Source: Phycisphaerae bacterium
GTDB taxonomy: Bacteria > Planctomycetota > Phycisphaerae > Sedimentisphaerales > SM23-30
Assembly (NCBI GenBank): GCA_016342495.1
Contig: JAEIOG010000011.1
Coordinates: forward strand, 4,330 to 68,329
Direction of reading: 5' to 3'
Length of the DNA stretch: 64,000 nucleotides
Part shown: piece after piece, positions 33,729 through 50,280 of the stretch
Position numbering within the stretch: the stretch's first letter is position 1
Layout: each line of letters begins with the position of its first letter
Notes under the pieces: generated by a model
The model's database searches: none
Told to the model about the DNA's origin: nothing
What the model saw: the letters and a program-made list of their open reading frames with translations, nothing else
Program-made: the position numbers and the translations under genes

Positions 33729-34739
33729 CTAACCATTGCGATATTGACTAGGTGTTACGCCCGCAAACCTTTTAAAAACTGTAGCGAAATATTGGCTAGA
33801 TTCAAATCCACAAGTGAAAGCTATGTCAGTTATGCTTAAATTAAGTTGGTTTTGTAACATTTTTTTGGCTTTTTCAACCCGACAATGAGCTAAAAAGTCC
33901 GAAGGTGTCATATTTGTGATTAATTTACAATAGTGGGCAAAACGGCTTCGGCCTAAATTGCAGTGTTTAGCCATCGAAGCTAAGGTCCAGGGATAATCGA
34001 TGTGTTTGGGCAGGGCATTAAGGAACATTTCGACAGATCGGCGGGTAGAAGTCAGGTGACTATCGAGTTTGATATTTTTCTGTTGCAGGATTTCATACAA
34101 TTCCAGAAACAGTTGGTTGATGTATAACTGCATTCTGGACTGGACTGATTCGGGGTTATCAGTTTCATAGCAGGCGGCAAAACTTTCAAAGCAATTTTCG
34201 ATATTTTGATTACCTTTCCAGACGGGTTGTTCGTTATGGCTAAGTAATTCGGTAAGACGTGTGAGGTCATGGGGGGCTAGGGTAAGCCAATCAGGCCAAT
34301 GCCATTGCTCATTGGGTCTGCGGACATCCAGATCGATAATGAGCCAATGCATTCGAGAAGCGCCAATTAAAGGTGAACCTACCTGATGGGGCTGCCAGGG
34401 CCGAGTGACAGTTAAATCCCCACTTTGGAGCTGATAAAGTTCGCCATCGACTGTGAAATCCAATTTTCCCCGGGAAAGGTAGCCCAGCTCTATGCCTTCA
34501 TTACGATGTTCGTCAAGTCCCCATTTTTGATCAGTTTTGGCATCCCAGACATTCGAAACGCAAAGTTCGGGCATCATTGCCGGAGGTAGTTTTTGGCCGG
34601 GATAGCAACCGCGGGCAAACCCAGTTAAGTCAAGTTCACCTCTGCTGGCAGCTGCTTTAAGGGCTTCGCAGGTATCGGCTCGATAGGTTATTGTACCATT
34701 GTAAAATATTGCAGGTTCAGGTTTTATATTCTTTTTCAT
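33729..34739 (-). CDS. AraC family transcriptional regulator (cupin sensor + HTH)
   Basis: This is ORF 33729-34751; ATG 34739 lies 5 nt after GGAGGTGA. The C-terminal AraC HTH is present (LASMAKHCNLGRSRFAHYCK..TPSDFL, DIAFTCGFESSQYFATVFKRFAGVTPSQYR). Confidence 0.85.
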   Translation of the reverse strand: MKKNIKPEPAIFYNGTITYRADTCEALKAAASRGELDLTGFARGCYPGQKLPPAMMPELCVSNVWDAKTDQKWGLDEHRNEGIELGYLSRGKLDFTVDGELYQLQSGDLTVTRPWQPHQVGSPLIGASRMHWLIIDLDVRRPNEQWHWPDWLTLAPHDLTRLTELLSHNEQPVWKGNQNIENCFESFAACYETDNPESVQSRMQLYINQLFLELYEILQQKNIKLDSHLTSTRRSVEMFLNALPKHIDYPWTLASMAKHCNLGRSRFAHYCKLITNMTPSDFLAHCRVEKAKKMLQNQLNLSITDIAFTCGFESSQYFATVFKRFAGVTPSQYRNG

Positions 34740-35033
34740 ACTCACCTCCACTAGAATTTATATTTATTATAGCAATATACCCTTGTATAAGGGAAGTATA
34801 AAATATACCACTGGCTAATTTTAGTAGATTAATAAGTAATTCTAGATTATTTTTATTGAAATAATGGTAACAAGTGTCAATAATTTGGCTAGAGTGTATC
34901 TTTAACAGGGAAAATTCTCTTTGTTTGAAGATTATTCTCTAAAAAACTTTTAAAATGAAATAAAATGTTAGCCTGAAACCATTTATGTGGAAATATAAAT
35001 ACATGTTCCTTAGAATTTGCGAAAGGTAAAGTG

Positions 35034-36206
35034 ATGGCAAAATTTCGAAAGCTTAAGATGGCAATGGTAGGTGGTGGTCCTGGTGCGTTTATTGGCGATG
35101 TGCATCGAAAAGCAGCAAGAATGGATGGCGGCATTGAAATTGTCGCCGGCGCATTTGATATAAATCCTGAAAAATCTCAGCAAATGGGCCGTGAGCTGTG
35201 TATTGCTCCGGAAAGAACCTATAATGATTATAAATCGATGCTTAAAGGTGAATTAGCATTACCCGAGCAAGACCGCGTTGATTTTATCTCTGTTTGTACT
35301 CCCAATAACTGGCATTTCCCTATCGCTCGTGATATTCTTCAGGCTGGTTTCCATGTAATGTGTGAAAAACCTATGACATTGAATGTCAAAGAAGCTAAAG
35401 AATTGAAGAAAATTGTCGCAAAATCGGGTAAAGTTTTTGGTTTGATGCACAATTATACTGGTTATCCGATGATCAAACTGGCTCGTGATATGATAGCCAA
35501 GGGTGAATTTGGTAAAATTCGCAAAGTTGTAGTGCAATATCCTCAGGGTTGGCTTGCTACGCCATTGGAGAAAACTGGACAACAGCAGGCTGCCTGGCGC
35601 ACTGATCCTAAACAAAGCGGCGGGGCCGGCTGTATGGGTGATATTGGTACTCATTGCGAAAATCTGGCTGAATACGTTACTGGTTTGAAAATAACTGAAA
35701 TTTGTGCCGAATTAACTACTTTTGTACCCGGAAGAGCGTTAGATGATGATGGCAATTGTATTTTGAAGTTTGATAATGGTGCCAAAGGCCTGCTTCATGC
35801 CAGCCAAATATCCGTAGGTGAAGAAAATAACCTGGCAATCTGGGTTTATGGAGAGAAAAAAGGATTAGAATGGCGTCAGGAAGATCCTAATTACCTGAAA
35901 GTCAAGGTTATGGACGGTCCTGAACAGGTTTGGAAACGTGGTAATGCTTATGTTGGAGCCAAATCACCAGCAGCAGCTCGTGCTACTCGGCTTCCAAGTG
36001 GTCATCCTGAGGCATTTTTTGAGGCCTTTGCTAATACATACTGTAATTTTACGGATACTATCCGAGCGGTTGATGCTGGCAAGAAGCCAACAAAGCTAAT
36101 GCTGGATTTCCCAAATGTGGATGATGGTCTGCGTGGTATGCTCTTTATTGAAACGGTACTAGCGAGCAATAAAAGCAAACAAAAGTGGACATCCTTTAAG
36201 AAATAA
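35034..36206 (+). CDS. Gfo/Idh/MocA family oxidoreductase (cytoplasmic)
   Basis: It has Rossmann KMAMVGGGPGAFIG and VMCEKP, and no signal peptide. Confidence 0.85.
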   Translation: MAKFRKLKMAMVGGGPGAFIGDVHRKAARMDGGIEIVAGAFDINPEKSQQMGRELCIAPERTYNDYKSMLKGELALPEQDRVDFISVCTPNNWHFPIARDILQAGFHVMCEKPMTLNVKEAKELKKIVAKSGKVFGLMHNYTGYPMIKLARDMIAKGEFGKIRKVVVQYPQGWLATPLEKTGQQQAAWRTDPKQSGGAGCMGDIGTHCENLAEYVTGLKITEICAELTTFVPGRALDDDGNCILKFDNGAKGLLHASQISVGEENNLAIWVYGEKKGLEWRQEDPNYLKVKVMDGPEQVWKRGNAYVGAKSPAAARATRLPSGHPEAFFEAFANTYCNFTDTIRAVDAGKKPTKLMLDFPNVDDGLRGMLFIETVLASNKSKQKWTSFKK

Positions 36207-36366
36207 GATGATTAATGCCGTTATCGTTGTTTCTAATGTTTGACATTTTGCATTTGTACAATATAATAAAAGTCTCCCTGCAAGAAAAGGCAACCTGTAA
36301 TGTTAAATGGCTTAGCCAAAATTAGAGGTTTCCAAAATTATTACTACTTATCTAGAGGTATGAAGA

Positions 36367-37779
36367 ATGAGTAATCGTAGAGATTTTCTGAAAAGCATGA
36401 CTTTTGCATTGGGGACAGCAACAGTTTTGGGTGGCTGTAGTATGGCTAAGGCTTCGCGAAGCAAGCCGGGCTTTAATATGTCAGGATATTGTGCGCCTAA
36501 AATTCCAACTGTTAGAATAGGTTTTATTGGTCTGGGTATGAGAGGCCCTGGAGCGGTTTCCCGTATGACACATATCGAAGGTGTTGAAATTGCCGCTATT
36601 TGTGACAAACGCAAACAATGCACTGATAAAGTTGAAAAAATGCTGGCTAATAGTGGTTTTCCAAAACCAGCGGTTTATACTGGTAGCGAAGATGCATGGA
36701 AAGAAATGTGTCAGCGTGATGACCTGGACTTAATTTATATCGCAACACCATGGCATATGCATACACCAATGGCGGTTTATGCAATGGAACAAGGCAAGCA
36801 TGCCGCTAGCGAAGTTCCTGTGGCAACAACTATGGAAGAATGCTGGCAGTTGGTAGAAACTTCTGAAAAAACCAAAAAACATTGTGTTATTCTGGAAAAC
36901 TGCTGTTATGATTTCTTTGAAATGCTAACATTAAATATGGTGCGTCAGGGCATGTTTGGTGAAGTAATTCATGGAGAAGGGGCTTATATTCATAATCTGG
37001 TGGGTTTGAATTTCAATAAAAATGGTTATGCTGATATGTGGCGTTTGAACCACAATGCCAAACGCAACGGTAACCTTTACCCGACCCATGGTCTCGGCCC
37101 GGTTTGTCAGTGCATGGATATTAATCGTGGCGATAAGATGGAATATCTGACATCTATGGCCAGTGCTGACTTCACTATGAATGCTGAAGCTACCAAACGT
37201 GCTGAAACGGATGATTTTTACAAGCCTTATATCGGTAAGCCATATCGAGGCAATATGAATACTACATTAGTTAAGACCAATAAAGGTAGAACTATCATGA
37301 TTCAGCATGATGTAAGTTCGCCAAGGCCATATTCTCGTATCCATTTGGTGTCAGGTACTAAAGCTTTTGCACAGAAATGGCCTAAGACTCATATCGCATT
37401 GGGCCATAGTGCGGTTTCTGATGAGAAGCTACAAGAACTGTATGATACATATTCACCTGAAATCGTAACAAAGATTGGTGAGATGGCCAAAAAAGTTGGC
37501 GGTCATGGTGGGATGGACTTCCTGATGGATTGGTCGATGATTAATTCATTGCGCAATGGATTGCCTGTTGATATGGATTGTTATGATGCTGCTTTATGGT
37601 CATGTATTACTCCATTGTCAATTGAGTCGATTGCAAACCGTTCAAATTCGGTTAAGGTTCCAGACTTTACCCGCGGCAATTGGAAGACCAATAAGCCTGT
37701 GGCTTTAGAACTGAAAACTATCAATGGTGTTCGTGGAATCAAAAAAGCTGATGCTTCAGGTCAGCTAAAAGTTGAATAA
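36367..37779 (+). CDS. GH109-like NAD-dependent glycosidase (alpha-N-acetylgalactosaminidase family), Tat/lipobox exported
   Basis: The signal is RRDFLKS..LGGC. As far as I recall the GH109 sequence, this one is collinear with it: VRIGFIGLGMRG, TPWHMH, EVPVATTMEECW, ILENCCY, MVRQGMFGE, NGNLYPTHGLGP, GGHGGMDF and PDFTRGNWK. Confidence 0.8.
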   Translation: MSNRRDFLKSMTFALGTATVLGGCSMAKASRSKPGFNMSGYCAPKIPTVRIGFIGLGMRGPGAVSRMTHIEGVEIAAICDKRKQCTDKVEKMLANSGFPKPAVYTGSEDAWKEMCQRDDLDLIYIATPWHMHTPMAVYAMEQGKHAASEVPVATTMEECWQLVETSEKTKKHCVILENCCYDFFEMLTLNMVRQGMFGEVIHGEGAYIHNLVGLNFNKNGYADMWRLNHNAKRNGNLYPTHGLGPVCQCMDINRGDKMEYLTSMASADFTMNAEATKRAETDDFYKPYIGKPYRGNMNTTLVKTNKGRTIMIQHDVSSPRPYSRIHLVSGTKAFAQKWPKTHIALGHSAVSDEKLQELYDTYSPEIVTKIGEMAKKVGGHGGMDFLMDWSMINSLRNGLPVDMDCYDAALWSCITPLSIESIANRSNSVKVPDFTRGNWKTNKPVALELKTINGVRGIKKADASGQLKVE

Positions 37780-37791
37780 TTAGTTATAAAA

Positions 37792-37862: not shown

Positions 37863-38861
37863 ATGGCAAGACCAGTGACATTATTTACCGGGCAATGGGC
37901 AGATATGCCTTTGGAAGATTTAGCTAAGTTGGCATCGGATATGGGCTATGATGGACTTGAACTGGCATGTTGGGGTGACCACATGGATGTTTTCAAGGCT
38001 GCTACTGATTTGGATTATTGCAAGAAACAGCTTGGAATCCTGGAAAAAAATAATTTGCAATGTTTTGCTATCAGTAATCATCTGGCAGGCCAGTTGGTTT
38101 GTGATTTGAACAATGACAGCCGCAGTGATTGTTTTGCCCCGGCAGAACTTGCCGGAAACGCCGAAGGTAAACGCAAGTGGGCCGTTGAATCAATGGTCAA
38201 TACCGCAAAAGCAGCTAAGAATTTAGGTCTTAAAGTTGCCAATGGTTTTACCGGGTCATCTATCTGGCATATGCTTTACAGCTTTCCGCCAGTATCAAGC
38301 GATATGATTGAAGAAGGCTTCCAGTATTTTGCGAAGATGTGGAATCCTATTTTGGATGTGTTTGATGATTGTGGTGTGAAGTTCGCATTAGAAGTTCATC
38401 CAACAGAAATAGCATTTGATATTGTTACTACAAAACGCGCTTTGGAAGCAATTAAACATCGCCCGGCATTTGGCTTTAATTTTGATCCTAGTCATTTATA
38501 TTGGCAGATGGTTGATCCGGCATTATTTATTGAAGAATTTGATGATCGTATTTATCATGTTCATATGAAAGATGCTGCGTTGCAAACCAATGGTTTTAGG
38601 GGGATTCTGGCATCCCATCTGAATTTTGGCGAAAAAGACCGTGGGTGGGATTTCCGCAGTCTGGGCCGAGGTGGCGTTGATTTTGAAGAAATTATTCGTG
38701 CATTAAATCATGCTGGTTATGATGGTCCACTTTCAGTCGAATGGGAAGATTGCGGTATGGAAAGAGTGCATGGTGCGACAGAAGCCTGCGAATTTGTTCG
38801 TTCGGTAGACTTTCAGCCATCAAATGTTGTTTTTGATGAAGCATTTGACGACAAAAAATAA
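37863..38861 (+). CDS. sugar phosphate isomerase/epimerase (xylose isomerase-like TIM barrel)
   Basis: AGGAG lies 8 nt before the ATG. The 332-aa product shows YDGLELACWGDH, ALEVHP, FNFDPSH and SVEWED, the typical pattern of AP-endonuclease-2/xylose-isomerase-like barrels. Confidence 0.8.
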   Translation: MARPVTLFTGQWADMPLEDLAKLASDMGYDGLELACWGDHMDVFKAATDLDYCKKQLGILEKNNLQCFAISNHLAGQLVCDLNNDSRSDCFAPAELAGNAEGKRKWAVESMVNTAKAAKNLGLKVANGFTGSSIWHMLYSFPPVSSDMIEEGFQYFAKMWNPILDVFDDCGVKFALEVHPTEIAFDIVTTKRALEAIKHRPAFGFNFDPSHLYWQMVDPALFIEEFDDRIYHVHMKDAALQTNGFRGILASHLNFGEKDRGWDFRSLGRGGVDFEEIIRALNHAGYDGPLSVEWEDCGMERVHGATEACEFVRSVDFQPSNVVFDEAFDDKK

Positions 38862-38897
38862 TGCATTAATTACTCAAACTGACTGATAGTCTGTTTG

Positions 38898-39105: not shown

Positions 39106-39164
39106 TATCCATCATTATAATTATATAGGTAAGATTTTATAATTTATTTGAGAGCAGTAATACC

Positions 39165-40475
39165 ATGACTAAAAACAATCCAAATCGCAGAAGTTTTTTG
39201 AAATCAAGTGCTTTGGGGATGGGGGCTTGTTTGTTTCCTGGCATAATTCCCTCTACTGTATTAGGGCGTGACGGTGCGGTTGCTCCCAGTAATAAAATCG
39301 GCATTGGCTGTGTTGGAATGGGTATGATGGGGCCAGGCAATATGGGACAATTCCTGAATATGGATGATGTTCAGGTTGTTGGTGTTGCTGACATAGACAA
39401 AAATGCTTTGGCTGGTGGTTTAAATCAGGTAAAAGGCAGATATGGCCAGGCCTGCCAGAGTTATCACGAATATCGAGAGATGTTTGCCCGCAAAGATATT
39501 GATGCGGTGATGCTGGCTGTGCCGGACCACTGGCATGCGATTGCTGCGATAGATGCGGCCAAGGCGGGTCTGGATATTTACGGTGAAAAACCACTTTCGC
39601 ATACCTTTGAAGAAGGTCTGGCGATGTGCAAGGCAGTCGAACGTTATGGTCGTATCTGGCAGACAGGCAGTTGGCAGCGTAGTGAATCGAATTTTCGTAT
39701 CGGTGCTGAGCTTGTTCGGAATGGCCGTATCGGAAAACTTCAGAATGTTGAAGTTGGCTTGCCAAGTGGCTATGGCTTATTTGGCGGTTCTTCTGATACA
39801 ACAGTTATGGAAGCACCTGCAACATTAGATTATGATCGCTGGTTAGGGCCGGCACCTTATATGCCATATAGTCCAGCGAGAGTTCATCGAGTCTGGCGTT
39901 GGAATTATGATTATGGCGGGGGCCAACTTATGGACTGGGTAGGGCATCATGTTGATATCGCTCATTGGGGTATGGGTATGGATGAAAGCGGGCCGGTTGA
40001 AGTTTATGGAACTGGTGATTTTTCAGAAACAACTAAAGTTTGGAATGCCGCCTCAAAATATAATGTAACAGCCAAATATGCAAATGGTGTAGTTTTACAT
40101 ATTGCCGATTCGACACAAACTCCTATGGGAACCAAATGGATAGGTGATCAGGGCTGGATTTACGTAGATCGCGGTAATGTAATCCGTTCCAGCAATTCAG
40201 AAATACTCAAAGAAACTGTTGGTGCTGGTGAAATTAAATTGTACGACAGCAAAAATCACTGGCGTAACTTTATTGATTGCATCAAAACCCGGCAAGCGAC
40301 AATTACACCCTGTCAGACTGCGCATCGATCGGCAACGGTTGGGCATCTTGGTCTTATCTCAATTAAGCTTGGTGGAAGAAAGATTAAGTTCGACCCTGTC
40401 GCTCAAAAGATTATTGGTGATTTTACCGCTAGGCGTATGCTGGGCACATCAATGCGTAGCCCATGGAAAATCTAA
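39165..40475 (+). CDS. Tat-exported Gfo/Idh/MocA family oxidoreductase (tandem paralog A)
   Basis: It has an RRSFLKSSALGMGA Tat signal, Rossmann IGIGCVGMGMMG, and PDHWHA..YGEKP. Confidence 0.85.
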   Translation: MTKNNPNRRSFLKSSALGMGACLFPGIIPSTVLGRDGAVAPSNKIGIGCVGMGMMGPGNMGQFLNMDDVQVVGVADIDKNALAGGLNQVKGRYGQACQSYHEYREMFARKDIDAVMLAVPDHWHAIAAIDAAKAGLDIYGEKPLSHTFEEGLAMCKAVERYGRIWQTGSWQRSESNFRIGAELVRNGRIGKLQNVEVGLPSGYGLFGGSSDTTVMEAPATLDYDRWLGPAPYMPYSPARVHRVWRWNYDYGGGQLMDWVGHHVDIAHWGMGMDESGPVEVYGTGDFSETTKVWNAASKYNVTAKYANGVVLHIADSTQTPMGTKWIGDQGWIYVDRGNVIRSSNSEILKETVGAGEIKLYDSKNHWRNFIDCIKTRQATITPCQTAHRSATVGHLGLISIKLGGRKIKFDPVAQKIIGDFTARRMLGTSMRSPWKI

Positions 40476-40489
40476 TTGAAAGTTTACTT

Positions 40490-41803
40490 ATGGAAAATAA
40501 TAATTTAAATCGTAGAAAATTCTTAAAGAGCGCTGCTTCGATTGGCTTTGGAGCTTGCGTGTTTCCGGCAATTATTCCAGCTGGTGCTTTAGGTATGAAC
40601 GGTGATGTTGCACCCAGTAATAAAATAATCATGGGTTGCGCCGGTATGGGAGGAATGGGATCAGCCAATACCAATAATTTTCTGGGATTTAATGATGTTC
40701 AAGTTGTAGCTGTTTGTGATGTAGATAAAAATCATCTGGAATCAGGAAAGAATTTAGTAAAACGCAAATATGGCAAAGAATGCGACGGCTATCATGATTA
40801 CCGTGATATGATCGCAAGAAAAGATATTGATGCGGTGATGTTTGCATTGCCAGACCATTGGCATGCTGTTGCGGCAATTGATGCGGCCAAAGCTGGAAAA
40901 GATTTGTACAGCGAAAAGCCCATATCACATACTTTTAATGAAGGTATAGCGATTTGTGATGCAATTAAGCGTTATGATCGTATCTGGCAGACGGGCAGTT
41001 GGCAACGAAGTCAATCAAATTTCAGGATTGGTGCTGAGCTTGTACGCAATAATCGAATTGGTAAGGTTCATACGACAGAAGTCGGTTTACCTTCGGGCCC
41101 TGACAAGAATCGAACTGCACCAGAGGAATTTATTATACAAAAGCCACCAGCTCAGTTGGATTATGATCGATGGCTTGGCCCGGCATTAGATAGTCCTTAC
41201 TGTCCAGCCCGTGTACATAACAATTGGCGTTGGAATTATGATTATGGCGGGGGGCAAATGCTGGATTGGATCGGCCATCATGGCGATATCGCCCATTGGG
41301 GATTGGGTTTTGAACATACCGGCCCGGTTGAGGTAGAAGGTGTTGGCAGTTTTCCCGCCAGCGGTGAAATTTGGAATACGGCCACTGAATACCGTATTGT
41401 TGCAAAATATGCCAATGGTATGAATATGATAATCGCTGATACTACACATATTCCAATGGGAACCAAATGGATAGGTGACAGGGGCTGGATATTTGTTGAT
41501 CGAGGTGGGGTGCTCCGCGCCAGTGATCCTGAAATTCTTAAACAGACAGTTGGACCTGATGAAATCAAGCTGTATAAATCAACTGATCACCCTCGTAATT
41601 TTATTGATTGTGTCAGAACACGTCAGCAGACAATTGCCCCATGTGATATAGCTCATCGATCAACAACACCTGGGCACCTGGGTTTGATCGCAATGAAGCT
41701 AGGCCGTAAAATCAAGTTTAACCCAGAAACTCAGAAAATCATAAATGATTCTACTGCGTCATCTATGCTTGGCTATACTATGCGTGCTCCATGGAGTATC
41801 TAA
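40490..41803 (+). CDS. Tat-exported Gfo/Idh/MocA family oxidoreductase (tandem paralog B)
   Basis: This is ORF 40463-41803; ATG 40490 gives MENNNLNRRKFLKSAAS. It is collinear with, and highly similar to, 39165-40475. Confidence 0.85.
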   Translation: MENNNLNRRKFLKSAASIGFGACVFPAIIPAGALGMNGDVAPSNKIIMGCAGMGGMGSANTNNFLGFNDVQVVAVCDVDKNHLESGKNLVKRKYGKECDGYHDYRDMIARKDIDAVMFALPDHWHAVAAIDAAKAGKDLYSEKPISHTFNEGIAICDAIKRYDRIWQTGSWQRSQSNFRIGAELVRNNRIGKVHTTEVGLPSGPDKNRTAPEEFIIQKPPAQLDYDRWLGPALDSPYCPARVHNNWRWNYDYGGGQMLDWIGHHGDIAHWGLGFEHTGPVEVEGVGSFPASGEIWNTATEYRIVAKYANGMNMIIADTTHIPMGTKWIGDRGWIFVDRGGVLRASDPEILKQTVGPDEIKLYKSTDHPRNFIDCVRTRQQTIAPCDIAHRSTTPGHLGLIAMKLGRKIKFNPETQKIINDSTASSMLGYTMRAPWSI

Positions 41804-44800: not shown

Positions 44801-45177
44801 TTGCCTGGAAAAATCTATCAGCAGCAAACAGAGGTCAAAAAGCAATTAATTTACTTAAGGAATACAACGGGGAAAGTTGTGTTATGTATTTGGCTACTTC
44901 AATTTATGTTGACAGCGAGCAAACGGCTAAAGTTAATTTTGGTAGTGACGATGGTGCAAAAGTGTGGATAAATAAACAGAATGTATTTGGCATAAATGCA
45001 TCGAGAGCTCATACACATGGTGTTGATAAATTTGATATTAAGCTTAATAAAGGCTGGAATACTATATTGGCTAAAATAACTCAAGGCGCAGGCGATTGGG
45101 CTTTGAGTATGGAAATTAGAGATTTAAGTGGCAAACCTGTCAAGGGTATGCGCATTGACCCGAGCAGAATTAAATAA
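41851..45177 (+). CDS. secreted ThuA-like domain / HEAT-repeat / C-terminal beta-sandwich fusion protein
   Basis: It has a Sec signal. The ThuA pattern is present (LLIFSKCNGYRHGSIP, GIHAATD, GGTFDGHPW, VFYCGIGHN). About 600 aa of HEAT/PBS-lyase-like repeats follow, then a C-terminal beta-rich domain. Confidence 0.75.
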   Translation: MNKITKIILILAFIFTTNSIANAAVSADELAKIQKAAPAKAPAKPATARKLLIFSKCNGYRHGSIPYVTAAIEIMGKKTGAYTTAVSEDMNVFAPEYLNGYDAVCFNNTTMLTFTPSQRQALMSFVKGGKGIVGIHAATDNFYKWPEAAEMMGGTFDGHPWVSNGTWAVQIEDGSHPLMKSFAGKDFKITEEIYRTKPMNLRENNRVLMGLDFGDKATATANGVRESDVDVPISWLRDYHKGRVFYCGIGHNKQHLWNPAILGHYLAGIQFAFGDLEASTEPISLGQAEIKRFNVILDNVKSYKYGDDDKQLRKLERDVMTETDPAKLVVMVKGLNDFVVSDATLASKQMACRLLSVVGKESSVNPLVSLLADDKTAGMALYALGTIEGLAVDEALRNALPKVKAEVQIGIINVIGQRKDSYAVEALTKAIGQGKEETVLAGINALGHIADHQAAKVLNQFIVDNSDPKIKAAAYDALLRCAESFAANDTDAASKAYRLIYETAGSDYLRAAGLNGLLSCSGEKAGKLVVEVLKSGDQAMAIAVLGQVRKSSSVKQLKSYVALMPELQSAVRAQLLSALAETKDPTVLPAIIAAIADPDQRVRLTAIAVLPNVGGVEEIKLLLDKTINGSREEQAAARESLKRLRGKKVDAAMLAMLDNAEAAVKIELITAISSRGLSGDLVMLPLIKIAATEASSKVRQEALKALPGFVKAKDFTALVQLILILENDRDRSLAINVAEAAYRCGDVDMAIVKKSLAVEDVAKKVSIIELAGKLSAANCLEELAEILKSDNPVLKTAVIKALSQWQSDEPIMSLYEIAKNSQVRKDKVLAFRGFVKLIGQNSNRPGEVSAKYCRDGMAIAETATDKRQVIAAIGQCPAWETFTLAYEYIQSADLANDAAAVTVSIGQKVAGYNPSQVREVIQSIIGNSNIADNIKNEGKEILKKIAANEAFITDWKVSGPYQMAGKDYAALFDIAFAPEKNEAVAWKNLSAANRGQKAINLLKEYNGESCVMYLATSIYVDSEQTAKVNFGSDDGAKVWINKQNVFGINASRAHTHGVDKFDIKLNKGWNTILAKITQGAGDWALSMEIRDLSGKPVKGMRIDPSRIK

Positions 45178-45198: not shown

Positions 45199-46536
45199 AT
45201 GGCAAATAAAAACTTAACTAGACGAGATTTCCTTGCTGGCTCTTTGGCGGCAACGGCTTTTATGTATGTACCCAAACATGTTTTGGGTGGCCCTGGCATT
45301 ACTGCACCGAGTGATAAACTTAATATCGCAGCTATTGGTGCTGGCGGCAGGGCAGGTTCAAATATTGTTGGCGCTGGTAAGGGTAATAATATTGTTGCAT
45401 TATGCGATGTAGATCTTAATCGTGCAAAAGACATGTGGGGTAGATACCCGAATGCAGCAAAGTTTAGAGATTTCCGCGTTATGCTGGATAAACAGAAAGA
45501 TATTGACGCGGTTATTGTATCGACACCTGACCACATGCATGCCTATGCGGCACTGTCAGCGATAAAAATGGGCAAGCATGTCTATTGCGAAAAACCTTTG
45601 ACTCATACAATTCAAGAAGCTCGTATATTAACTGAACAGGCAAGAAAATATAAAGTCGCTACCCAGATGGGTAATCAAGGTCATAGCGGCTCTGGTATCA
45701 GAAGAGTTTCCGAATGGGTCAAATCTGGTGTTATCGGTAAAATCAAAGAAGTTCGTTGTTGGACTGACAGGCCAAATAATTGGTGGCCACAGGGTATGGA
45801 TAAATTCCCTGCTGAAGCTCAGCCTGTTCCATCAACTTTAGAATGGGATATGTGGCTTGGTACCGCTGCCTGGCGTGAGTATAATGCGGCTTATTTGCCA
45901 TTTATCTGGCGTGGCTGGTGGGATTTCGGCACTGGTTCTCTAGGTGATATGGGTTGCCATATTATGGATATTCCATTTACCGCTCTGGGTTTGAAAGCAC
46001 CGATTAGCGTTGAAGCTGATACTGGCAAATTCTCAGCAGTCAGCCCGCCACTGGAATCTACAATTAAATATGAATTTATGGTTGACGGTAATAAAGTCCC
46101 GTTTACCTGGTATGATGGCGGAAGATTGCCTGAAAGACCAAAAATGGTACCAAAAGATGCCAAACTCGGTGATGGGTGTGGATCGATGATTATCGGTGAA
46201 GATGCCGTTATCGTAGCTGGTACTTATGGTGGTGGAGCCTGGGTTTATCCTGAAGCTAAAATGGATGAGATTAAGAAAGTGCCCAAGAGCACTCCAAACT
46301 CACCTGGTCATTATGAAGAATGGATAGCTGCCTGTAAGGGTGGGGCAAAAGCTGGTTCTAATTTTGATGTTTCCGGTGCCCTTACCGAAACGGTATTGCT
46401 GGGCAATGTCGCTATGCTTGCCAAACAGAAAATCCTTTGGGATAGTAAAAATCTTAAAGTTACCAATAGCGCAGAAGCTAACAAACTGATTTCCAAAACC
46501 TATCGTAAAGGCTGGGATATTAAAGATTTACTGTAA
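45199..46536 (+). CDS. Tat-exported Gfo/Idh/MocA family oxidoreductase
   Basis: It has an RRDFLAGSLAATA Tat signal, Rossmann IAAIGAGGRAG, and TPDHMHA..YCEKP. Confidence 0.85.
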   Translation: MANKNLTRRDFLAGSLAATAFMYVPKHVLGGPGITAPSDKLNIAAIGAGGRAGSNIVGAGKGNNIVALCDVDLNRAKDMWGRYPNAAKFRDFRVMLDKQKDIDAVIVSTPDHMHAYAALSAIKMGKHVYCEKPLTHTIQEARILTEQARKYKVATQMGNQGHSGSGIRRVSEWVKSGVIGKIKEVRCWTDRPNNWWPQGMDKFPAEAQPVPSTLEWDMWLGTAAWREYNAAYLPFIWRGWWDFGTGSLGDMGCHIMDIPFTALGLKAPISVEADTGKFSAVSPPLESTIKYEFMVDGNKVPFTWYDGGRLPERPKMVPKDAKLGDGCGSMIIGEDAVIVAGTYGGGAWVYPEAKMDEIKKVPKSTPNSPGHYEEWIAACKGGAKAGSNFDVSGALTETVLLGNVAMLAKQKILWDSKNLKVTNSAEANKLISKTYRKGWDIKDLL

Positions 46537-46591
46537 TCTTACCCTGTTGGTAGCGACAGGAATTTAAAGTTTTATAATTATAGGAGTTATT

Positions 46592-47875
46592 ATGAAAACA
46601 GCAGTTAGAGCACAATTGTCTACTATGATGTTTGTAGAGTTTTTTGTCTGGGGTGCCTGGACGGTAATTTTAGTAACCTATCTGATGTCTGGCATGGGCT
46701 TTAGTGGCAAGCAGGTAGGGGCCGCTTATGGTACTGCCGCTATTGCTTCGATGATTTCTCCATTTTTCGTGGGGATGTTCGCCGATAGATTCTTCTCGGC
46801 TCAAAAACTATTAGCCTTTTTGCATTTACTGGGCGGGGCCCTGTTGATTTTTGTTATTCCAAAAGCTACCACTTGGGGTGCTTTCTATGGGGCTTTGTTG
46901 GCTTATATGCTTACTTATATGCCAACGCTGGCTTTGACCAATACCATAGCTTTAAAACAAATGCAGGATCCGGAAAAGGAATTCCCCCCGATTCGCCTGT
47001 TTGGTACATTGGGCTGGATTGCTGTGGGTTTTCTGGTGGGTTATATGTATTTAAGTGGCGATGGTAGCCTGAAAATGGTATTTGGCAAGGTAGAGGCCGG
47101 TAGCGATCTGGTTGAAGTGGCCCAAACTGCCATACCATTTAAGATGGCTGGTATTGGAGCAATTATTCTGGGATTGTTCAGCTTTATGTTGCCGAATACT
47201 CCGCCACAATCAGCTGGCCAGAAGATTACCGCCAGAGATATTTTAGGATTGGATGCTTTGAATCTGTTCAAGGATAAATCCTTTACTGTTTTTGCCATTT
47301 GTTCAATGCTTATTTGTATTCCTTTGGCTTTCTATTATAATTTTACTAATCAGTTTTTAGGTGATGCTGGTATGTTGAATGCCCCGGCTAAAATGACATT
47401 TGGCCAGATGTCTGAGGTATTCTTTATGCTCGTTATGCCGTTCTTCTTCAAACGCCTGGGCGTTAAGAAAATGTTGCTGGTTGGTATGATTTTCTGGACA
47501 GCACGTTATTTGTGTTTCTCTTTTGGCTATAGTCAGCAGGCCCTTATCCTATTGTATCTGGGTATTATTTTCCACGGTATCTGCTATGACTTTTTCTTTG
47601 TTACCGGTCAGATTTATATCGATCAAAAGGCTCCAGATCATCTGCGTGGCAGTGCCCAGGGGCTGATAGCCTTTATTACTCTTGGCGTAGGTATGTTTAT
47701 TGGTGCCAATGTTTCTGGCATGATCGTAGATAATTATACAACTACAGTTGACGGGGTAGTTAAGCAGGATTGGGGCACTATCTGGATGATTCCCGCAGCG
47801 ATGGCGGCAGTGGTGGCAATAATCTTTGCTCTATTCTTTAAAGATGACAAGAAAACTGCTGAAGTTACAGATTAA
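46592..47875 (+). CDS. MFS transporter, nucleoside:H+ symporter (NupG/XapB-like) family
   Basis: AGGAG lies 6 nt before the ATG. The product has about 12 TM helices. The N-terminus LSTMMFVEFFVWGAWTVILVTYL resembles the NupG family signature. Confidence 0.7.
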   Translation: MKTAVRAQLSTMMFVEFFVWGAWTVILVTYLMSGMGFSGKQVGAAYGTAAIASMISPFFVGMFADRFFSAQKLLAFLHLLGGALLIFVIPKATTWGAFYGALLAYMLTYMPTLALTNTIALKQMQDPEKEFPPIRLFGTLGWIAVGFLVGYMYLSGDGSLKMVFGKVEAGSDLVEVAQTAIPFKMAGIGAIILGLFSFMLPNTPPQSAGQKITARDILGLDALNLFKDKSFTVFAICSMLICIPLAFYYNFTNQFLGDAGMLNAPAKMTFGQMSEVFFMLVMPFFFKRLGVKKMLLVGMIFWTARYLCFSFGYSQQALILLYLGIIFHGICYDFFFVTGQIYIDQKAPDHLRGSAQGLIAFITLGVGMFIGANVSGMIVDNYTTTVDGVVKQDWGTIWMIPAAMAAVVAIIFALFFKDDKKTAEVTD

Positions 47876-47888
47876 CAATTATTTTAAT

Positions 47889-47919
47889 GCCCTTGGGGTT
47901 TTCTCCAGGGGCTTATTTT
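47889..47919 (+). terminator. probable rho-independent terminator
   Basis: The stem is GCCCTTGG / CCAGGGGC (one G:U pair) followed by TTATTTT, after the MFS transporter gene. Confidence 0.55.
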
Positions 47920-47928
47920 GGAGATATT

Positions 47929-48795
47929 ATGAAATATTTAGTTTATAGTTTTTTGATAGGTTTGGTATTTGTTTTTAGTGGATGTTGTGGCGAAAAATGC
48001 TGTGGATGCAAGAGTCAGGCTGCGCCTGCCAAAGTAACCGATGGCTGGAAAATGGCTGTGCAGGGTTGGACTTTCAATCGTTTCACCTTATTCGAAGCTA
48101 TTGAAAATGTTGACAAATTAGGTTTAGACTATATTGAATGTTATCCGGGCCAAAAGCTATCTCCAGATAGTGATGTTCGATTCACCTACAATGTATCGGC
48201 TGAAGTCAAACAGCAGGTCAAAGACAAGCTGGCCCAACATAATGTTAAACTGGTTAATTTTGGTGTATTTGGCTTTCCCAAAGAACGTGAAAAATGTGTA
48301 GAAGTATTTGAATTTGCCAAAGAAATGGGTATTGAAACTATTGTTTCAGAACCTAAAACCGATCAGTTGGCTATGCTGGACGAATTAGCTCAGCAATATA
48401 AAATTAATATTGCTATCCATAATCATCCGCAGCCATCGTTTTACTGGAATCCTGATACCGTGTTGAAAGCTTTGGAAGGCCGCAGTAAATATATGGGGGC
48501 TTGCGGTGATGTTGGTCATTGGATGCGTAGTGGTGTTAATCCTGTAGAAGCTGTTCAAAAGCTTAAAGGCAAAATTATCAGCTTCCATTTCAAAGACTTA
48601 AATGAATTTGGAAACAAAGGTGCCCATGATATGCCATGGGGTACTGGTGTTGGCAATGCAACCGCTGTTTTAGATGAAATCAAAAAACAGGGTTTTCAAG
48701 GTGTTTTCACTGCTGAATATGAATACAACTGGGATAATTCTATGCCGGAATTAGCCCAATGTGTGGCATTCTTTAAGGCTTATCAGAATAATTGA
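47929..48795 (+). CDS. exported sugar phosphate isomerase/epimerase (xylose isomerase-like TIM barrel), lipoprotein
   Basis: This is ORF 47887-48795. The upstream extension overlaps a terminator hairpin, and ATG 47929 follows GGAG. It has a lipobox (FSGC) and the barrel motifs LGLDYIECYPGQ, AIHNHP, GDVGHW and TAEYEY. Confidence 0.75.
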   Translation: MKYLVYSFLIGLVFVFSGCCGEKCCGCKSQAAPAKVTDGWKMAVQGWTFNRFTLFEAIENVDKLGLDYIECYPGQKLSPDSDVRFTYNVSAEVKQQVKDKLAQHNVKLVNFGVFGFPKEREKCVEVFEFAKEMGIETIVSEPKTDQLAMLDELAQQYKINIAIHNHPQPSFYWNPDTVLKALEGRSKYMGACGDVGHWMRSGVNPVEAVQKLKGKIISFHFKDLNEFGNKGAHDMPWGTGVGNATAVLDEIKKQGFQGVFTAEYEYNWDNSMPELAQCVAFFKAYQNN

Positions 48796-48817
48796 TAATA
48801 AACAATTAATAATCAGG

Positions 48818-48849
48818 AAGGCATGCTGTTTTACGGGCATGCCTTTTTT
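48818..48849 (+). terminator. rho-independent terminator
   Basis: The stem is AAGGCATGC / GCATGCCTT followed by a T-run. Confidence 0.75.
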
Positions 48850-48864
48850 AATTCAGAGGTATAT

Positions 48865-50280
48865 ATGGATAGAAGAAACTTTCTAAAAGGTATGGGCGTG
48901 ATGGCGGTATCTTTTGCCGTCCCAGGTTGCAGTAATGCCGGCTTCAGCAAGCAAAATAAAAGACCAAACATTATTTTATGCATGACTGATGACCAGGGCT
49001 GGGGTGATACCGGCTATAATGGCAATCAATATGTCAAAACTCCCAATCTTGACCTGATGGCAAAGACCGGCGTGCGTTTTGATCGGTTTTATTCAGCCGC
49101 TCCGGTGTGTTCACCTACCCGCGGAAGTTGCATAACTGGCCGCCATCCATATCGTTATGGTATTTTCTTTGCCAATGCTGGCCATATGAAAAAAGAAGAG
49201 ATGACTTTAGCAGAAGTGCTGAAACCCTTGGGATATACAACTGGACATTTTGGTAAATGGCACATGGGAACTTTAACTACCAAGATTAAAGATGCCAATA
49301 GAGGTAAACCTGGTGATGCTTCGCATTATAGTCCGCCCTGGGAAAATGGGTTTGATACCTGCTTTTCTACTGAATCGAAGGTTCCTACTTATGACCCGAT
49401 GAAAAACCCTGAAGAACCTGAAAAACCTTATGGCACATATTATTGGCAGGGGCCAGACCAGATGGTCAAAGAAAACCTTGATGGCGATGACAGCCGTATT
49501 ATTATGGACAGGGCGATTCCCTTTATGCAAAAGGCTGCCAAAAATAATCAGCCATTCTTTATGGTTATTTGGTTCCACAGCCCGCACTTGCCAGTTGTCG
49601 CAGGGGCCCAATATCATCAAATGTATAAGGATTTACCTGAACATGGGCGTAATTTCTTTGGCTGTATCACCGCGATGGATAAACAAATGGGGCGGCTACG
49701 GACTGAACTGGAAAATTCAGACGTTGCCAACGATACCATGCTGTTTTTCTGTAGTGATAATGGTCCCGAAGGTAAAAAATATGATCTGGAAAACGCTGCT
49801 GGCTCAGCTAAAAATCTCAGAGGCCGTAAGCGTTCACTATATGAAGGTGGAATACGCGTTCCGGGTATAATGCTTTGGCCAGCAAAGATTAGTTCTTCAA
49901 TGATTATCGACACGCCTTGTGGAACAGTTGATTATTTCCCCACTGTTATGGATGCTCTTGGATATACATTGAATAACGATCCCGGCCCTATTGATGGACA
50001 ATCACTATTACCTTTTATCTATGGCAAAACCAAGTTAAGAACGGCACCTTTATGCTTTCAATCGCAAAAGCAGTTGGCTTTGACTGATAATCGGTTGAAG
50101 CTATACAGTAAAGATGGCGGTAAAACCTATGAACTTTATGATATAGTCAAAGACCCTGCTGAAGCTACCGATATCTCAGCCGATTTTCCTGAAGAAAAGG
50201 CCCGGTATATTCAGCAATTAAACCAATGGCAACAATCTTGTAAAGCTTCTTTGGATGGCCGAGACTATCTTGAACAATAA
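48865..50280 (+). CDS. sulfatase (Tat signal, lipobox)
   Basis: This is ORF 48823-50280. Its extension overlaps the terminator at 48818-48849, and ATG 48865 gives MDRRNFLKG..PGCS. DDQGWGD, the signature CSPTRGSCITGR and GKWH are present. Confidence 0.9.
   Translation: MDRRNFLKGMGVMAVSFAVPGCSNAGFSKQNKRPNIILCMTDDQGWGDTGYNGNQYVKTPNLDLMAKTGVRFDRFYSAAPVCSPTRGSCITGRHPYRYGIFFANAGHMKKEEMTLAEVLKPLGYTTGHFGKWHMGTLTTKIKDANRGKPGDASHYSPPWENGFDTCFSTESKVPTYDPMKNPEEPEKPYGTYYWQGPDQMVKENLDGDDSRIIMDRAIPFMQKAAKNNQPFFMVIWFHSPHLPVVAGAQYHQMYKDLPEHGRNFFGCITAMDKQMGRLRTELENSDVANDTMLFFCSDNGPEGKKYDLENAAGSAKNLRGRKRSLYEGGIRVPGIMLWPAKISSSMIIDTPCGTVDYFPTVMDALGYTLNNDPGPIDGQSLLPFIYGKTKLRTAPLCFQSQKQLALTDNRLKLYSKDGGKTYELYDIVKDPAEATDISADFPEEKARYIQQLNQWQQSCKASLDGRDYLEQ

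What the first reader, a model, noticed from the sequence alone, without database searches (positions are those of the whole stretch)
33729..50280. Large exported oxidoreductase, TIM-barrel lyase, ThuA and sulfatase locus consistent with NAD-dependent oxidation-elimination glycan breakdown
An AraC regulator is divergent from a run of 11 plus-strand genes up to the second sulfatase.

**Gene content**
- Five Gfo/Idh/MocA oxidoreductases. Four have Tat signals, and one of those is clearly GH109-like.
- Two xylose-isomerase-like TIM-barrel proteins, one of them a lipoprotein.
- A ThuA-HEAT fusion.
- A NupG-type MFS transporter.
- A Tat-exported sulfatase. A GH36-like enzyme lies just upstream at 31128-33716.

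**Established knowledge**
- GH109 and GH4 enzymes cleave glycosides by transient NAD-dependent oxidation and elimination.
- ThuA/ThuB act via 3-keto-disaccharides.
- Recently described bacterial pathways use a Gfo/Idh/MocA glycoside 3-dehydrogenase plus xylose-isomerase-like lyases to break O- and C-glycosides without classical hydrolases.

**Inference.** This locus is a periplasmic version of such a pathway, aimed at a sulfated, GalNAc/Gal-containing glycan. The number of Tat-exported, cofactor-loaded dehydrogenases is striking.
Basis: partly seen in the sequence, partly recalled or inferred. Interest (0 to 1): 0.6.

Follow-up and report, generated by a model that had tools for sequence, protein, structure and literature searches.

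The report
Oxidative sugar-chain cleavage gene cluster
This marine planctomycete gene cluster most likely cuts sugar linkages by first oxidising the sugar and then eliminating the bond, a route recently described in gut bacteria, here built around an unstudied scaffold protein and split between the periplasm and the cytoplasm.

Summary
The described genes are there (10 plus-strand ORFs, not 11). The oxidation-elimination reading is supported. ORF 45199-46536 aligns over its full length with the solved glycoside 3-dehydrogenase AL3 (E 8e-100) and keeps all six of its ligand residues. ORF 37863-38861 is a homologue of the Agrobacterium 2-hydroxy-3-keto-glucal hydratase (E 2e-50).

A core recurs in 22 related loci: cytoplasmic Gfo, cytoplasmic TIM barrel, Tat-Gfo of a second type, ThuA-HEAT, BT2158-type Tat-Gfo and lipoprotein TIM barrel. 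There it often carries DUF1080 (the known 3-keto-glycoside lyase/hydratase), sometimes fused to the TIM barrel or to ThuA. It also often carries a third Gfo type with a seven-haem cytochrome c.

GH109, the NupG-type transporter, the sulfatase and the GH36-like gene are in 0 of those 22 loci. The proposed sulfated GalNAc/Gal target therefore rests only on accessory genes of this genome.

A complex model supports docking of the second-type Gfo on the ThuA domain (0.63; best control 0.01). A periplasmic form of the pathway is already known from Bacteroides, so this is a new variant of a known kind.

Earlier notes of this scan report related Tat-Gfo/HEAT/DUF1080 and Gfo/cytochrome modules on other DNA.

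The parts
33729..34751 (-). AraC-family regulator (cupin sensor + HTH), divergent from the operon
   Evidence: Pfam HTH_18/HTH_AraC/Cupin_2. Orthologues of 60-66% identity lie divergent next to the GfoCyt-TIMcyt pair in 8 of 20 relatives' loci.
35031..36206 (+). GfoCyt: cytoplasmic Gfo/Idh/MocA oxidoreductase, inferred NAD(P)H 3-keto-sugar reductase
   Evidence: No leader; the Rossmann motif sits at the N-terminus. PDB 3v5n 1e-111 and 7d5m 7e-77. The best NCBIfam match is levoglucosan dehydrogenase, 123 bits against a cut-off of 650. 57-76% identical copies lie next to TIMcyt in 19 of 20 relatives' loci.
36367..37779 (+). GH109-like NAD-dependent glycosidase, Tat motif plus lipobox; accessory to the core
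   Evidence: PF21252 156 bits. PDB 6t2b 1e-100 and 2ixa 3e-70 over the full length. Absent from all 49 fetched related loci.
37863..38861 (+). TIMcyt: cytoplasmic xylose-isomerase-like TIM barrel, inferred 2-hydroxy-3-keto-glycal hydratase
   Evidence: PDB 8ro4 '2-hydroxy-3-keto-glucal hydratase' 2.2e-50 (residues 8-326) and 2zds 3.5e-118. A match of 59-82% identity is present in 28 of 40 relatives, single in 27 of them. A 56% identical homologue ends a GH3-GMC-TIM-Gfo-TIM operon in Deinococcus aetherius.
39165..40475 (+). GfoTatA: Tat-exported Gfo of a second, uncharacterised subfamily
   Evidence: PF19051 over its full length. 29% identical to the BT2158-type over the full length; the catalytic Asp/His are kept but the AL3 Gln/Arg/Trp are not. 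Only the N-terminal half matches a solved structure.
40463..41803 (+). GfoTatB: tandem paralogue of GfoTatA (65% identity), predicted partner of the ThuA domain
   Evidence: In 20 related loci a gene of this type lies directly upstream of ThuA. Complex model 0.63 against a best control of 0.01.
41851..45177 (+). Exported ThuA (residues about 50-272) + HEAT repeats (about 320-925) + PA14-like beta-sandwich (925-1108)
   Evidence: Pfam ThuA 157.7 bits and HEAT_2. The C-terminal model has pLDDT 85, and its best Foldseek hits are PA14 carbohydrate-binding domains, E 2e-5 to 5e-5, TM 0.4-0.5. There is no CxxCH motif.
45199..46536 (+). Gfo2158: Tat-exported BT2158/AL3-type glycoside 3-dehydrogenase
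   Evidence: NCBIfam BT_2158_fam 461.6 bits, residues 7-437, against a cut-off of 750. PDB 8tdf 7.8e-100. Q160, R191, W196, D250, H254 and Y343 align with AL3 Q161, R192, W195, D248, H252 and Y349.
46592..47875 (+). NupG-type MFS transporter; accessory, inferred importer of the cleaved keto-sugar or glycal
   Evidence: PF03825 388.6 bits; TIGR00889 381 bits against a cut-off of 446. Absent from all 49 related loci.
47887..48795 (+). TIMlipo: lipoprotein TIM barrel, inferred metal-dependent 3-keto-glycoside 1,2-lyase (likely start at the Met of MKYLV, about 47929)
   Evidence: PF01261. PDB 3p6l 2e-74, uncharacterised. E, H-N-H, D-x-G-H, H-x-K and E-x-E are invariant in 11 sequences. Fused to DUF1080 in L037, L041, L045, L046, L064 and L073. 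Among characterised folds the best Foldseek hits are the isomerase Art22 (2e-13) and then DgpB (3e-13), but the ranking is not discriminating.
48823..50280 (+). S1 sulfatase with DRRNFL motif and lipobox; accessory
   Evidence: PF00884 182.8 bits. CSPTR at residue 96. The best full-length solved relatives are S1_19 kappa/iota-carrageenan sulfatases, 6prm 2e-46. Absent from the 22 core loci.
31128..33716 (+). GH36-like exported protein upstream; membership of the unit doubtful
   Evidence: Melibiase 38.6 bits over residues 459-547 only. PDB E-values of 4e-5 or worse. Absent from all related loci.

Best explanation
The locus is an AraC-controlled, two-compartment version of the stepwise oxidative (3-keto) route of glycoside cleavage.

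**Periplasm**
- The Tat-exported BT2158/AL3-type enzyme (45199-46536), carrying bound NAD, oxidises C3 of the non-reducing-end sugar. Homology and pocket are shown; activity is inferred.
- The lipoprotein TIM barrel (47887-48795) then eliminates the aglycone to give a 2-hydroxy-3-keto-glycal. This is inferred from fusions and gene position.
- A second dehydrogenase unit is formed by GfoTatA/B docked on the ThuA head of a long HEAT protein. The PA14-like end of that protein probably holds the glycan. This rests on a model and on synteny.

**Transport and cytoplasm**
- The locus has no DUF1080 hydratase. The glycal or keto-sugar is therefore probably imported by the NupG-type MFS.
- It is then hydrated by TIMcyt (37863-38861, an AtHYD homologue) and reduced by GfoCyt (35031-36206). 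The order and the substrates are inferred.

**Accessory genes and redox balance**
- GH109 and the sulfatase are additions specific to this genome that would trim caps off the substrate.
- The periplasmic NADH may be re-oxidised by the keto-sugar product, as in Bacteroides.
- Alternatively it may be re-oxidised by the Gfo/seven-haem cytochrome module, which sits in relatives' cassettes and on contig C33 of this genome.
For: **Homology to characterised enzymes**
- Gfo2158 against AL3: E 7.8e-100 over the full length, with 6 of 6 ligand residues kept (the residues are named).
- The NCBIfam best hit is glycoside 3-dehydrogenase.
- TIMcyt against 8ro4, the hydratase: 2.2e-50. Bitter et al. give AtHYD plus a Gfo reductase as the last two steps.
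- A 56% identical TIMcyt homologue closes a GH3-GMC-TIM-Gfo-TIM operon in Deinococcus.

**Synteny.** 22 loci hold GfoTat + ThuA + HEAT: 14 of 29 loci found through ThuA-HEAT, and 8 of 20 found through TIMcyt. Of these 22:
- 18 hold TIMcyt;
- 14 hold the BT2158 type;
- 14 hold DUF1080;
- 10 hold TIMlipo;
- 12 hold the third Gfo type;
- 9 hold the seven-haem cytochrome (many loci are cut by contig ends).

**Fusions.** TIMlipo-DUF1080 in 6 loci; ThuA-DUF1080 twice in L037.

**Complex model, GfoTatB with ThuA**
- Score 0.63 (runs 0.63, 0.00, 0.64); best of 3 controls 0.01.
- The mark was reached by 116 of 157 solved complexes and 2 of 215 mismatched pairs.
- Partner pLDDT at least 86; run agreement at least 0%; my own alignments were used.

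**Further context**
- A ThuA protein lies directly next to a GfoTatB-like gene in a Bacteroidota plasmid as well.
- Gene gaps from GfoTatA to the sulfatase are -13 to 55 nt.
Against: - No enzyme here was assayed, and no RNA data exist.
- Gfo2158 scores 461.6 bits, below the NCBIfam equivalog cut-off of 750.
- TIMlipo is not detectably similar by phmmer to any characterised lyase. Its solved relatives are unstudied structural-genomics proteins, and the Foldseek ranking after them is generic for TIM barrels.
- GfoCyt is only 27% identical to the Gfo beside the TIMcyt homologue in Arthrobacter and does not match the Deinococcus one. It has no BT2159-family hit. Its reductase role is therefore by position only.
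- The locus lacks DUF1080, which is the efficient hydratase in the published system. 10 of 20 relatives keep GfoCyt-TIMcyt without any cassette nearby, so the cytoplasmic pair may serve another input.
- One of three complex runs scored 0.00.
- The MFS, GH109 and sulfatase are unique to this locus, so their link to the core is shown only by spacing.
- A 303-nt gap with a hairpin separates TIMcyt from GfoTatA.
Confidence: 0.6

Rival explanations
1. A purely periplasmic, redox-neutral Bacteroides-type pathway. The Tat-Gfo enzymes, the lipoprotein TIM barrel and ThuA-HEAT do all the steps outside the cytoplasm. The cytoplasmic Gfo-TIM pair is an independent, merely adjacent sugar-salvage unit.
For: In the published system the exported dehydrogenase is recycled by reducing 3-keto-glucose, and the cytosolic Gfo is dispensable in vitro. 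AL/BT1-type TIM lyases also hydrate slowly. GfoCyt-TIMcyt stands alone in 10 of 20 relatives' loci. A 303-nt gap and a hairpin separate the two halves.
Against: TIMcyt lies in 18 of the 22 core loci, mostly directly upstream of the exported genes and on the same strand. TIMcyt is a homologue of a keto-glycal hydratase. This locus has no DUF1080 but has a transporter inside the exported block.
Confidence: 0.17
2. A cluster for oxidising free monosaccharides or inositols (GFOR/IolG-like dehydrogenases with IolE-like dehydratases), not for cleaving glycosides.
For: All Gfo genes give weak IolG, xylose-dehydrogenase and GFOR matches, and both TIM barrels give weak IolE matches. Exported NAD(P)-loaded GFOR is a precedent.
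Against: IolG scores are 37-80 bits against a cut-off of 355, and IolE scores are 24-44 bits against 290. The glycoside 3-dehydrogenase family scores 461 bits. The AL3 glycoside pocket is kept. DUF1080 fusions and neighbours are seen in 14 of 22 core loci. GH9, GH29, GH78 and GH95 genes lie beside related cassettes.
Confidence: 0.08
3. A mosaic with no shared substrate. The conserved core works on common gluco- or manno-configured oligosaccharides. GH109, the sulfatase, the MFS and the GH36-like gene are unrelated insertions.
For: These four genes are in 0 of 22 core loci. The genome has about 71 sulfatase-like places. Other genes are also found inserted between GfoCyt and TIMcyt: a BT2158-type Gfo in L062, and an FAD oxidoreductase plus an SSF transporter in L076.
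Against: They lie on the same strand with gaps of 11-160 nt. The MFS sits inside the exported block, between Gfo2158 and TIMlipo.
Confidence: 0.15

Closest known systems
BT2156-BT2160 of Bacteroides thetaiotaomicron and AL1-AL5 of Alistipes. Sources: Liu et al. 2021, PMC8121099, passages read; Nasseri et al., bioRxiv 10.1101/2024.03.25.586180, whole text read. The journal version was not held.
   Same: A Tat-exported Gfo with bound NAD oxidises C3, an exported or lipoprotein metal-dependent TIM barrel acts as lyase, and a cytosolic Gfo sits alongside. The dehydrogenase here is a full-length homologue with the same six pocket residues.
   Different: - There is no DUF1080 in this locus.
- The TIM barrel belongs to another subfamily.
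- The cytosolic Gfo is not BT2159-like.
- An AraC regulator replaces the SusR-family regulator BT2160 (DUF6377 protein AL5 in Alistipes).
- Added parts: a second Tat-Gfo subfamily, ThuA-HEAT-PA14-like, a cytoplasmic hydratase homologue, an MFS, GH109 and a sulfatase.
- Relatives add a seven-haem cytochrome.
The Agrobacterium tumefaciens GlycDH-AtOGE-AtHYD-Gfo operon. Source: Bitter et al. 2023, PMC10628242, section 7 and passages read. PDB 8RO4.
   Same: The sequence oxidation, beta-elimination, hydration of 2-hydroxy-3-keto-glucal, then reduction by a Gfo enzyme. TIMcyt is a homologue of AtHYD (2.2e-50) and is likewise paired with a Gfo.
   Different: The oxidase there is an FAD-dependent GMC enzyme, not a Gfo. 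The GfoCyt subfamily differs from the Gfo partners seen next to TIMcyt homologues elsewhere.
ThuA/ThuB of rhizobia, which form 3-keto-disaccharides. Known to me only as cited in Liu et al. 2021 and from recall.
   Same: A ThuA-domain protein is encoded next to a Gfo/Idh/MocA dehydrogenase. Here the pair is also predicted to bind.
   Different: - The ThuA here is exported and fused to HEAT repeats and a PA14-like domain.
- GfoTatB has no rhizobial plasmid match at E <= 1e-20, although 21 Sinorhizobium/Rhizobium plasmids hold ThuA matches. It is therefore probably not ThuB's orthologue.
- ThuB itself was not compared.
GH109 alpha-N-acetylgalactosaminidases (PDB 2IXA, 6T2B)
   Same: 36367-37779 has the GH109 C-terminal domain and full-length similarity to both solved structures.
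   Different: Catalytic residues and specificity were not tested. The gene is an insertion unique to this locus.
DgpA/DgpB-C C-glycoside deglycosidases
   Same: A Gfo 3-dehydrogenase works with a TIM-barrel lyase. DgpB is, after the isomerase Art22, the second-best characterised Foldseek hit of TIMlipo (3e-13).
   Different: No DgpC-like small subunit was seen. The similarity is at generic TIM-barrel level.

Membership tests
BT2158/AL3-type glycoside 3-dehydrogenase (NCBIfam NF058561) | Score at or above the curated equivalog cut-off (750 bits) | tested here: not met
   461.6 bits, residues 7-437 on model positions 1-444 of 487. It is a homologue, not an equivalog.
BT2158/AL3-type glycoside 3-dehydrogenase (NCBIfam NF058561) | Full-length fold-level alignment with the solved enzyme, and the six residues that bind NAD and the glycoside (AL3 Q161, R192, W195, D248, H252, Y349) | tested here: met
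   8tdf 7.8e-100 over residues 33-443. Q160, R191, W196, D250, H254 and Y343 align (residues; chain offset 29 worked out from the printed alignment).
BT2158/AL3-type glycoside 3-dehydrogenase (NCBIfam NF058561) | Tat export with bound cofactor | tested here: inconclusive
   A TRRDFL motif is read at residue 7. No predictor was run and no cofactor data exist.
BT2156-2160/AL1-5 type cluster | DUF1080 (PF06439) lyase/hydratase in the cluster | tested here: not met
   None on the window's contig C133, and 16 elsewhere in the genome. Present in 14 of 22 related core loci.
BT2156-2160/AL1-5 type cluster | AL1/BT1-type TIM-barrel 3-keto-beta-glucoside lyase | tested here: inconclusive
   TIMlipo is an exported PF01261 barrel with invariant metal-type residues. 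However, phmmer finds only 3p6l, 4kw2, 3lmz and 3wqo among solved chains. I could not confirm that AL1/BT1 chains are in the copy searched.
BT2156-2160/AL1-5 type cluster | BT2159-type cytosolic Gfo (NF058563) | tested here: not met
   GfoCyt gives no NF058563 match at E <= 0.001.
2-hydroxy-3-keto-glucal hydratase (AtHYD, PDB 8RO4) | Sequence homology over the whole barrel | tested here: met
   2.2e-50, residues 8-326 against 14-332.
2-hydroxy-3-keto-glucal hydratase (AtHYD, PDB 8RO4) | Metal centre and catalytic residues | not tested
GH109 | Rossmann domain plus GH109 C-terminal domain, and full-length similarity to characterised members | tested here: met
   PF01408 54.8 bits and PF21252 156.3 bits. 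6t2b 1.1e-100 and 2ixa 3.2e-70.
GH109 | Catalytic residues; alpha-GalNAc specificity | not tested
   No residue list from a source read here. CAZy/dbCAN was not available.
ThuA (PF06283) | Domain match above the gathering score | tested here: met
   157.7 bits against a cut-off of 33.4, residues 50-272.
ThuAB-type dehydrogenase pair | Gfo partner orthologous to rhizobial ThuB | tested here: inconclusive
   No rhizobial plasmid match for GfoTatB at E <= 1e-20. ThuB itself was not fetched.
S1 formylglycine sulfatase | PF00884 domain and C-x-P-x-R motif | tested here: met
   182.8 bits. CSPTR at residue 96. The SulfAtlas subfamily was not assignable with these tools.

The most novel reading that the evidence does not exclude
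In Phycisphaerae and their allies the oxidative glycoside-cleavage route has become a scaffolded pathway linked to respiration. The proposal has three parts:
- Exported NAD-loaded Gfo dehydrogenases dock on a ThuA head carried by a HEAT arm with a glycan-binding PA14-like end.
- Their reducing equivalents pass to a seven-haem cytochrome c rather than back to the keto-sugar.
- The keto-glycal is imported and finished by a cytoplasmic hydratase and reductase.

Glycoside cleavage would then yield energy, and ThuA would at last have a defined role as the docking subunit.
Probability: 0.3. Interest if true: 0.75.

Novelty: new variant of a known kind. Interest (0 to 1): 0.55.

Why it matters
Marine planctomycetes are major degraders of algal and sediment glycans, and they carry dozens of unexplained 'Gfo/Idh/MocA', 'ThuA', 'sugar phosphate isomerase' and 'DUF1080' genes.

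This locus and its 22 relatives tie those families into one cassette built on the 3-keto chemistry described in gut bacteria in 2021-2024. The work also yields three testable points:
- ThuA may be the docking partner of a second class of exported dehydrogenase.
- The exported NAD-loaded enzymes may be re-oxidised through a seven-haem cytochrome.
- The pathway can be split across the inner membrane.

If these hold, carbohydrate budgets inferred from CAZyme counts alone miss a whole route of glycan breakdown in these organisms.

Tried and rejected
- **Expression.** No RNA holder was listed for the locus. One DNA run labelled marine sediment metagenome holds 0.59 of the sampled words.
- **Rfam.** No family reached its gathering score in 30000-54000.
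- **Promoter and terminator scans.** Neither was above shuffles: 58 promoter-like sites against a mean of 52.5, and 13 terminator-like sites against 18.2.
- **Literature.**
  - The journal version of Nasseri et al. was not held.
  - A six-term search found 0 papers.
  - The ThuA/ThuB search gave no mechanistic paper.
  - The DUF1080/ThuA/Planctomycetota search listed no paper on such a cassette among the 25 shown of 1,091.
- **ThuB comparison.** A comparison with rhizobial ThuB was not achieved. The Bradyrhizobium ThuA neighbourhood had no Gfo gene, and Sinorhizobium records were not among the 60 rows listed.
- **ESM Atlas.** For the C-terminal domain it returned only unnamed Planctomycetota clusters.
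- **Foldseek for TIMlipo.** After three unstudied Parabacteroides proteins it ranks Art22, DgpB, epimerases and xylose isomerases at similar E-values, so it does not settle the function.
- **Rejected readings.**
  - Inositol catabolism: scores far below the cut-offs.
  - Levoglucosan use: GfoCyt scores 123 bits against a cut-off of 650.
  - C-glycoside cleavage: no DgpC-like gene was seen.
- **Not done.** The GH36-like protein, the MOP flippase and the sixth Gfo were not studied further. No tree against characterised enzymes was built, because solved-structure sequences cannot be exported. NCBIfam and PDB scores were used instead.

Full report
**1. What is there**

The window has about 41% G+C across the locus. 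ORF calling and Pfam give an AraC regulator at 33729-34751 (-). It is divergent from ten + strand genes between 35031 and 50280. In order these are:
- GfoCyt
- a GH109-like gene
- TIMcyt
- GfoTatA
- GfoTatB
- a 1108-aa ThuA-HEAT protein
- Gfo2158
- a NupG-type MFS
- TIMlipo
- a sulfatase

Leaders were read from the translations only:
- Twin-arginine motifs are on the GH109-like gene, GfoTatA, GfoTatB, Gfo2158 and the sulfatase.
- Lipoboxes are on the GH109-like gene, TIMlipo and the sulfatase.
- A Sec leader is on ThuA-HEAT.
- GfoCyt and TIMcyt have none.

Six of the genome's 31 PF01408 matches lie in this 18-kb stretch of a 5.42 Mb assembly.

**2. What the parts are**

*Gfo2158*
- It scores 461.6 bits on NCBIfam 'glycoside 3-dehydrogenase' (BT_2158_fam). 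This is below the equivalog cut-off of 750 but covers the full length.
- It aligns with the solved enzyme 8tdf/8tdh at 7.8e-100.
- Nasseri et al. (bioRxiv, whole text read) name six residues of the AL3 pocket. From the printed alignment the chain numbering is offset by 29, and all six are kept here: Q160, R191, W196, D250, H254, Y343.

*GfoTatA and GfoTatB*
- They are 65% identical to each other.
- They are 29-30% identical to Gfo2158 over the full length. They keep the Asp/His pair but not the Gln/Arg/Trp.
- No solved structure matches their C-terminal half.

*TIMcyt and GfoCyt*
- TIMcyt matches 8ro4, deposited as 2-hydroxy-3-keto-glucal hydratase, at 2.2e-50.
- Bitter et al. 2023 (PMC10628242, section 7 and passages) place that enzyme and a Gfo reductase at the end of the Agrobacterium oxidation-elimination-hydration-reduction operon.
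- GfoCyt's nearest solved relatives are unstudied.

*Other genes*
- TIMlipo's nearest solved relatives are three unstudied Parabacteroides proteins.
- The GH109-like protein matches both solved GH109 enzymes over the full length.
- The sulfatase has the CSPTR motif. Its best full-length relatives are S1_19 carrageenan sulfatases, at 2e-46.

**3. The conserved core**

*How the loci were found*
- A scan of species genomes with ThuA-HEAT returned 29 loci.
- A search of 40 relatives with TIMcyt found a match of 59-82% identity in 28; 27 of these genomes have one match and one has two. I fetched 20 of these 28.

*What they hold*
- tblastn with all the window's proteins shows one recurring order: GfoCyt - TIMcyt - one to five GfoTatA/B-type genes - ThuA(-HEAT) - one to five BT2158-type genes - TIMlipo.
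- Twenty-two loci hold GfoTat + ThuA + HEAT: 14 of 29 and 8 of 20.

| Gene or family | Present in how many of the 22 core loci |
|---|---|
| TIMcyt | 18 |
| GfoCyt | 12 |
| BT2158 type | 14 |
| DUF1080 | 14 |
| TIMlipo | 10 |
| Third Tat-Gfo type | 12 |
| Seven-haem cytochrome c | 9 |
| AraC | 6 (all in the family-level set) |
| GH109 | 0 |
| NupG-MFS | 0 |
| Sulfatase | 0 |
| GH36-like | 0 |

Many loci end at contig edges, so these presences are lower bounds.

*Neighbours by Pfam*
- A DUF1080 gene lies between ThuA-HEAT and the BT2158-type genes.
- TIMlipo is fused to DUF1080 in six loci.
- ThuA is fused to DUF1080 twice in L037.
- DUF6807 genes lie upstream.
- Downstream lie a third Gfo type, a cytochrome with seven CxxCH motifs and a cytochrome-b-like membrane protein.

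*In the window's own genome*
- The cassette is single-copy and has no DUF1080, although 16 matches lie elsewhere.
- The third-type Gfo pair, a seven-haem cytochrome and ApbE sit on contig C33.
- A BT2158-type Gfo with DUF1080 sits on C113.

**4. ThuA-HEAT**
- In 20 of the 37 loci with a ThuA match, the ORF directly upstream of ThuA is a GfoTatA/B-type gene.
- The complex model of GfoTatB (46-446) with the ThuA domain (45-300), made with my own alignments, scored 0.63 (runs 0.63, 0.00, 0.64). The best of three controls scored 0.01.
- The mark was reached by 116 of 157 solved complexes and 2 of 215 mismatched pairs. Partner pLDDT was at least 86 and run agreement at least 0%. This supports binding but does not show it.
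- The only solved ThuA-like chain found is an unstudied single protein.
- The last 184 residues have no Pfam family and match only unnamed planctomycete clusters in the Atlas.
- They fold with pLDDT 85 as a beta-sandwich. Its best Foldseek hits are PA14 carbohydrate-binding domains, at E about 2e-5 to 5e-5 and TM 0.4-0.5. This is a moderate match.
- A red-alga-associated Bacteroidota plasmid also has a ThuA protein directly upstream of a GfoTatB-like gene, 38.6% identical.
- GfoTatB has no rhizobial plasmid match at E <= 1e-20. The likeness to ThuAB is therefore by analogy.

**5. Reading**
- *Shown:* the homologies, the pocket conservation, the synteny and the fusions.
- *Inferred:* every activity, the order of steps, import by the MFS, and the redox path.
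- The most economical model is the published 3-keto route, with two differences: its last two steps are moved to the cytoplasm, and it has a second dehydrogenase unit mounted on ThuA-HEAT.
The BT2158-type pocket is that of an enzyme that rejects galactosides.
- Against the model:
  - The scores are below the curated cut-offs.
  - TIMlipo and GfoCyt are assigned by context only.
  - GfoCyt-TIMcyt occurs without the cassette in 10 of 20 relatives' loci.
  - One complex run failed.
  - There are no expression data.

**6. Novelty**
- The chemistry and a periplasmic form of the pathway are published.
- I found no paper on this ThuA-HEAT cassette in the searches.
- Earlier notes of this scan, read after my own analysis, report related modules on other genomes: Tat-Gfo with a HEAT/DUF1080/ThuA partner, and Gfo with a heptahaem cytochrome.

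Noticed in passing
window 36240-36267: A perfect TTGACA-16-TATAAT lies between GfoCyt and the inserted GH109-like gene. The scan as a whole was not above shuffles.
   Followed up: no
window 34774-34818: A 17-nt direct repeat, two copies 28 nt apart, lies in the AraC-GfoCyt intergenic region. These may be AraC half-sites or may be chance.
   Followed up: no
window 38862-39164: The 303-nt gap after TIMcyt holds a hairpin with 12-nt arms (38873-38899) and a run of seven T near 39075. The locus may be two transcripts.
   Followed up: no
window 50368-53146: A MOP-family flippase and a signal-less sixth Gfo continue the + strand run. G+C drops to 0.359 at 50001-52000. This is probably a separate polysaccharide-synthesis unit.
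   Followed up: no
L082 (own genome, contig C33) 4848-14561: Two Tat-Gfo of the third type lie with a 748-aa cytochrome c that has seven CxxCH motifs, two F5/8-type-C proteins, a PMT_2 protein and ApbE. In relatives this module is part of the cassette.
   Followed up: partly
L083 (own genome, contig C113) 826-8836: Dak1/Dak2, a TIM barrel, a fucose-isomerase-like gene, a BT2158-type Gfo, DUF1080 and a GH51-like gene lie in one run. This is a second 3-keto-type unit of the classical dehydrogenase + DUF1080 kind.
   Followed up: no
whole own genome: There are about 71 sulfatase-like tblastn places in 5.42 Mb, several in tandem arrays.
   Followed up: no
L031, L032, L036, L046 versus L037, L063, L064, L066, L073: ThuA and the HEAT arm are separate adjacent ORFs in some loci and one fused ORF in others and here. 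In L037 the fusion also carries DUF5077 and DUF1080.
   Followed up: partly
L076 1117-4764; L062 3422-4912: The spot between GfoCyt and TIMcyt, where GH109 sits here, holds other inserted genes in relatives: an FAD oxidoreductase plus an SSF transporter, or a BT2158-type Gfo.
   Followed up: partly
L041, L045, L046 upstream of TIMcyt: DUF6807 proteins, some fused to DUF1080, precede the cassette. Their function is unknown.
   Followed up: no
window 31128-33716: This is an 862-aa exported protein with only a short Melibiase-like stretch. Three paralogues (29-43% identity over the C-terminal half) lie elsewhere in the genome.
   Followed up: no
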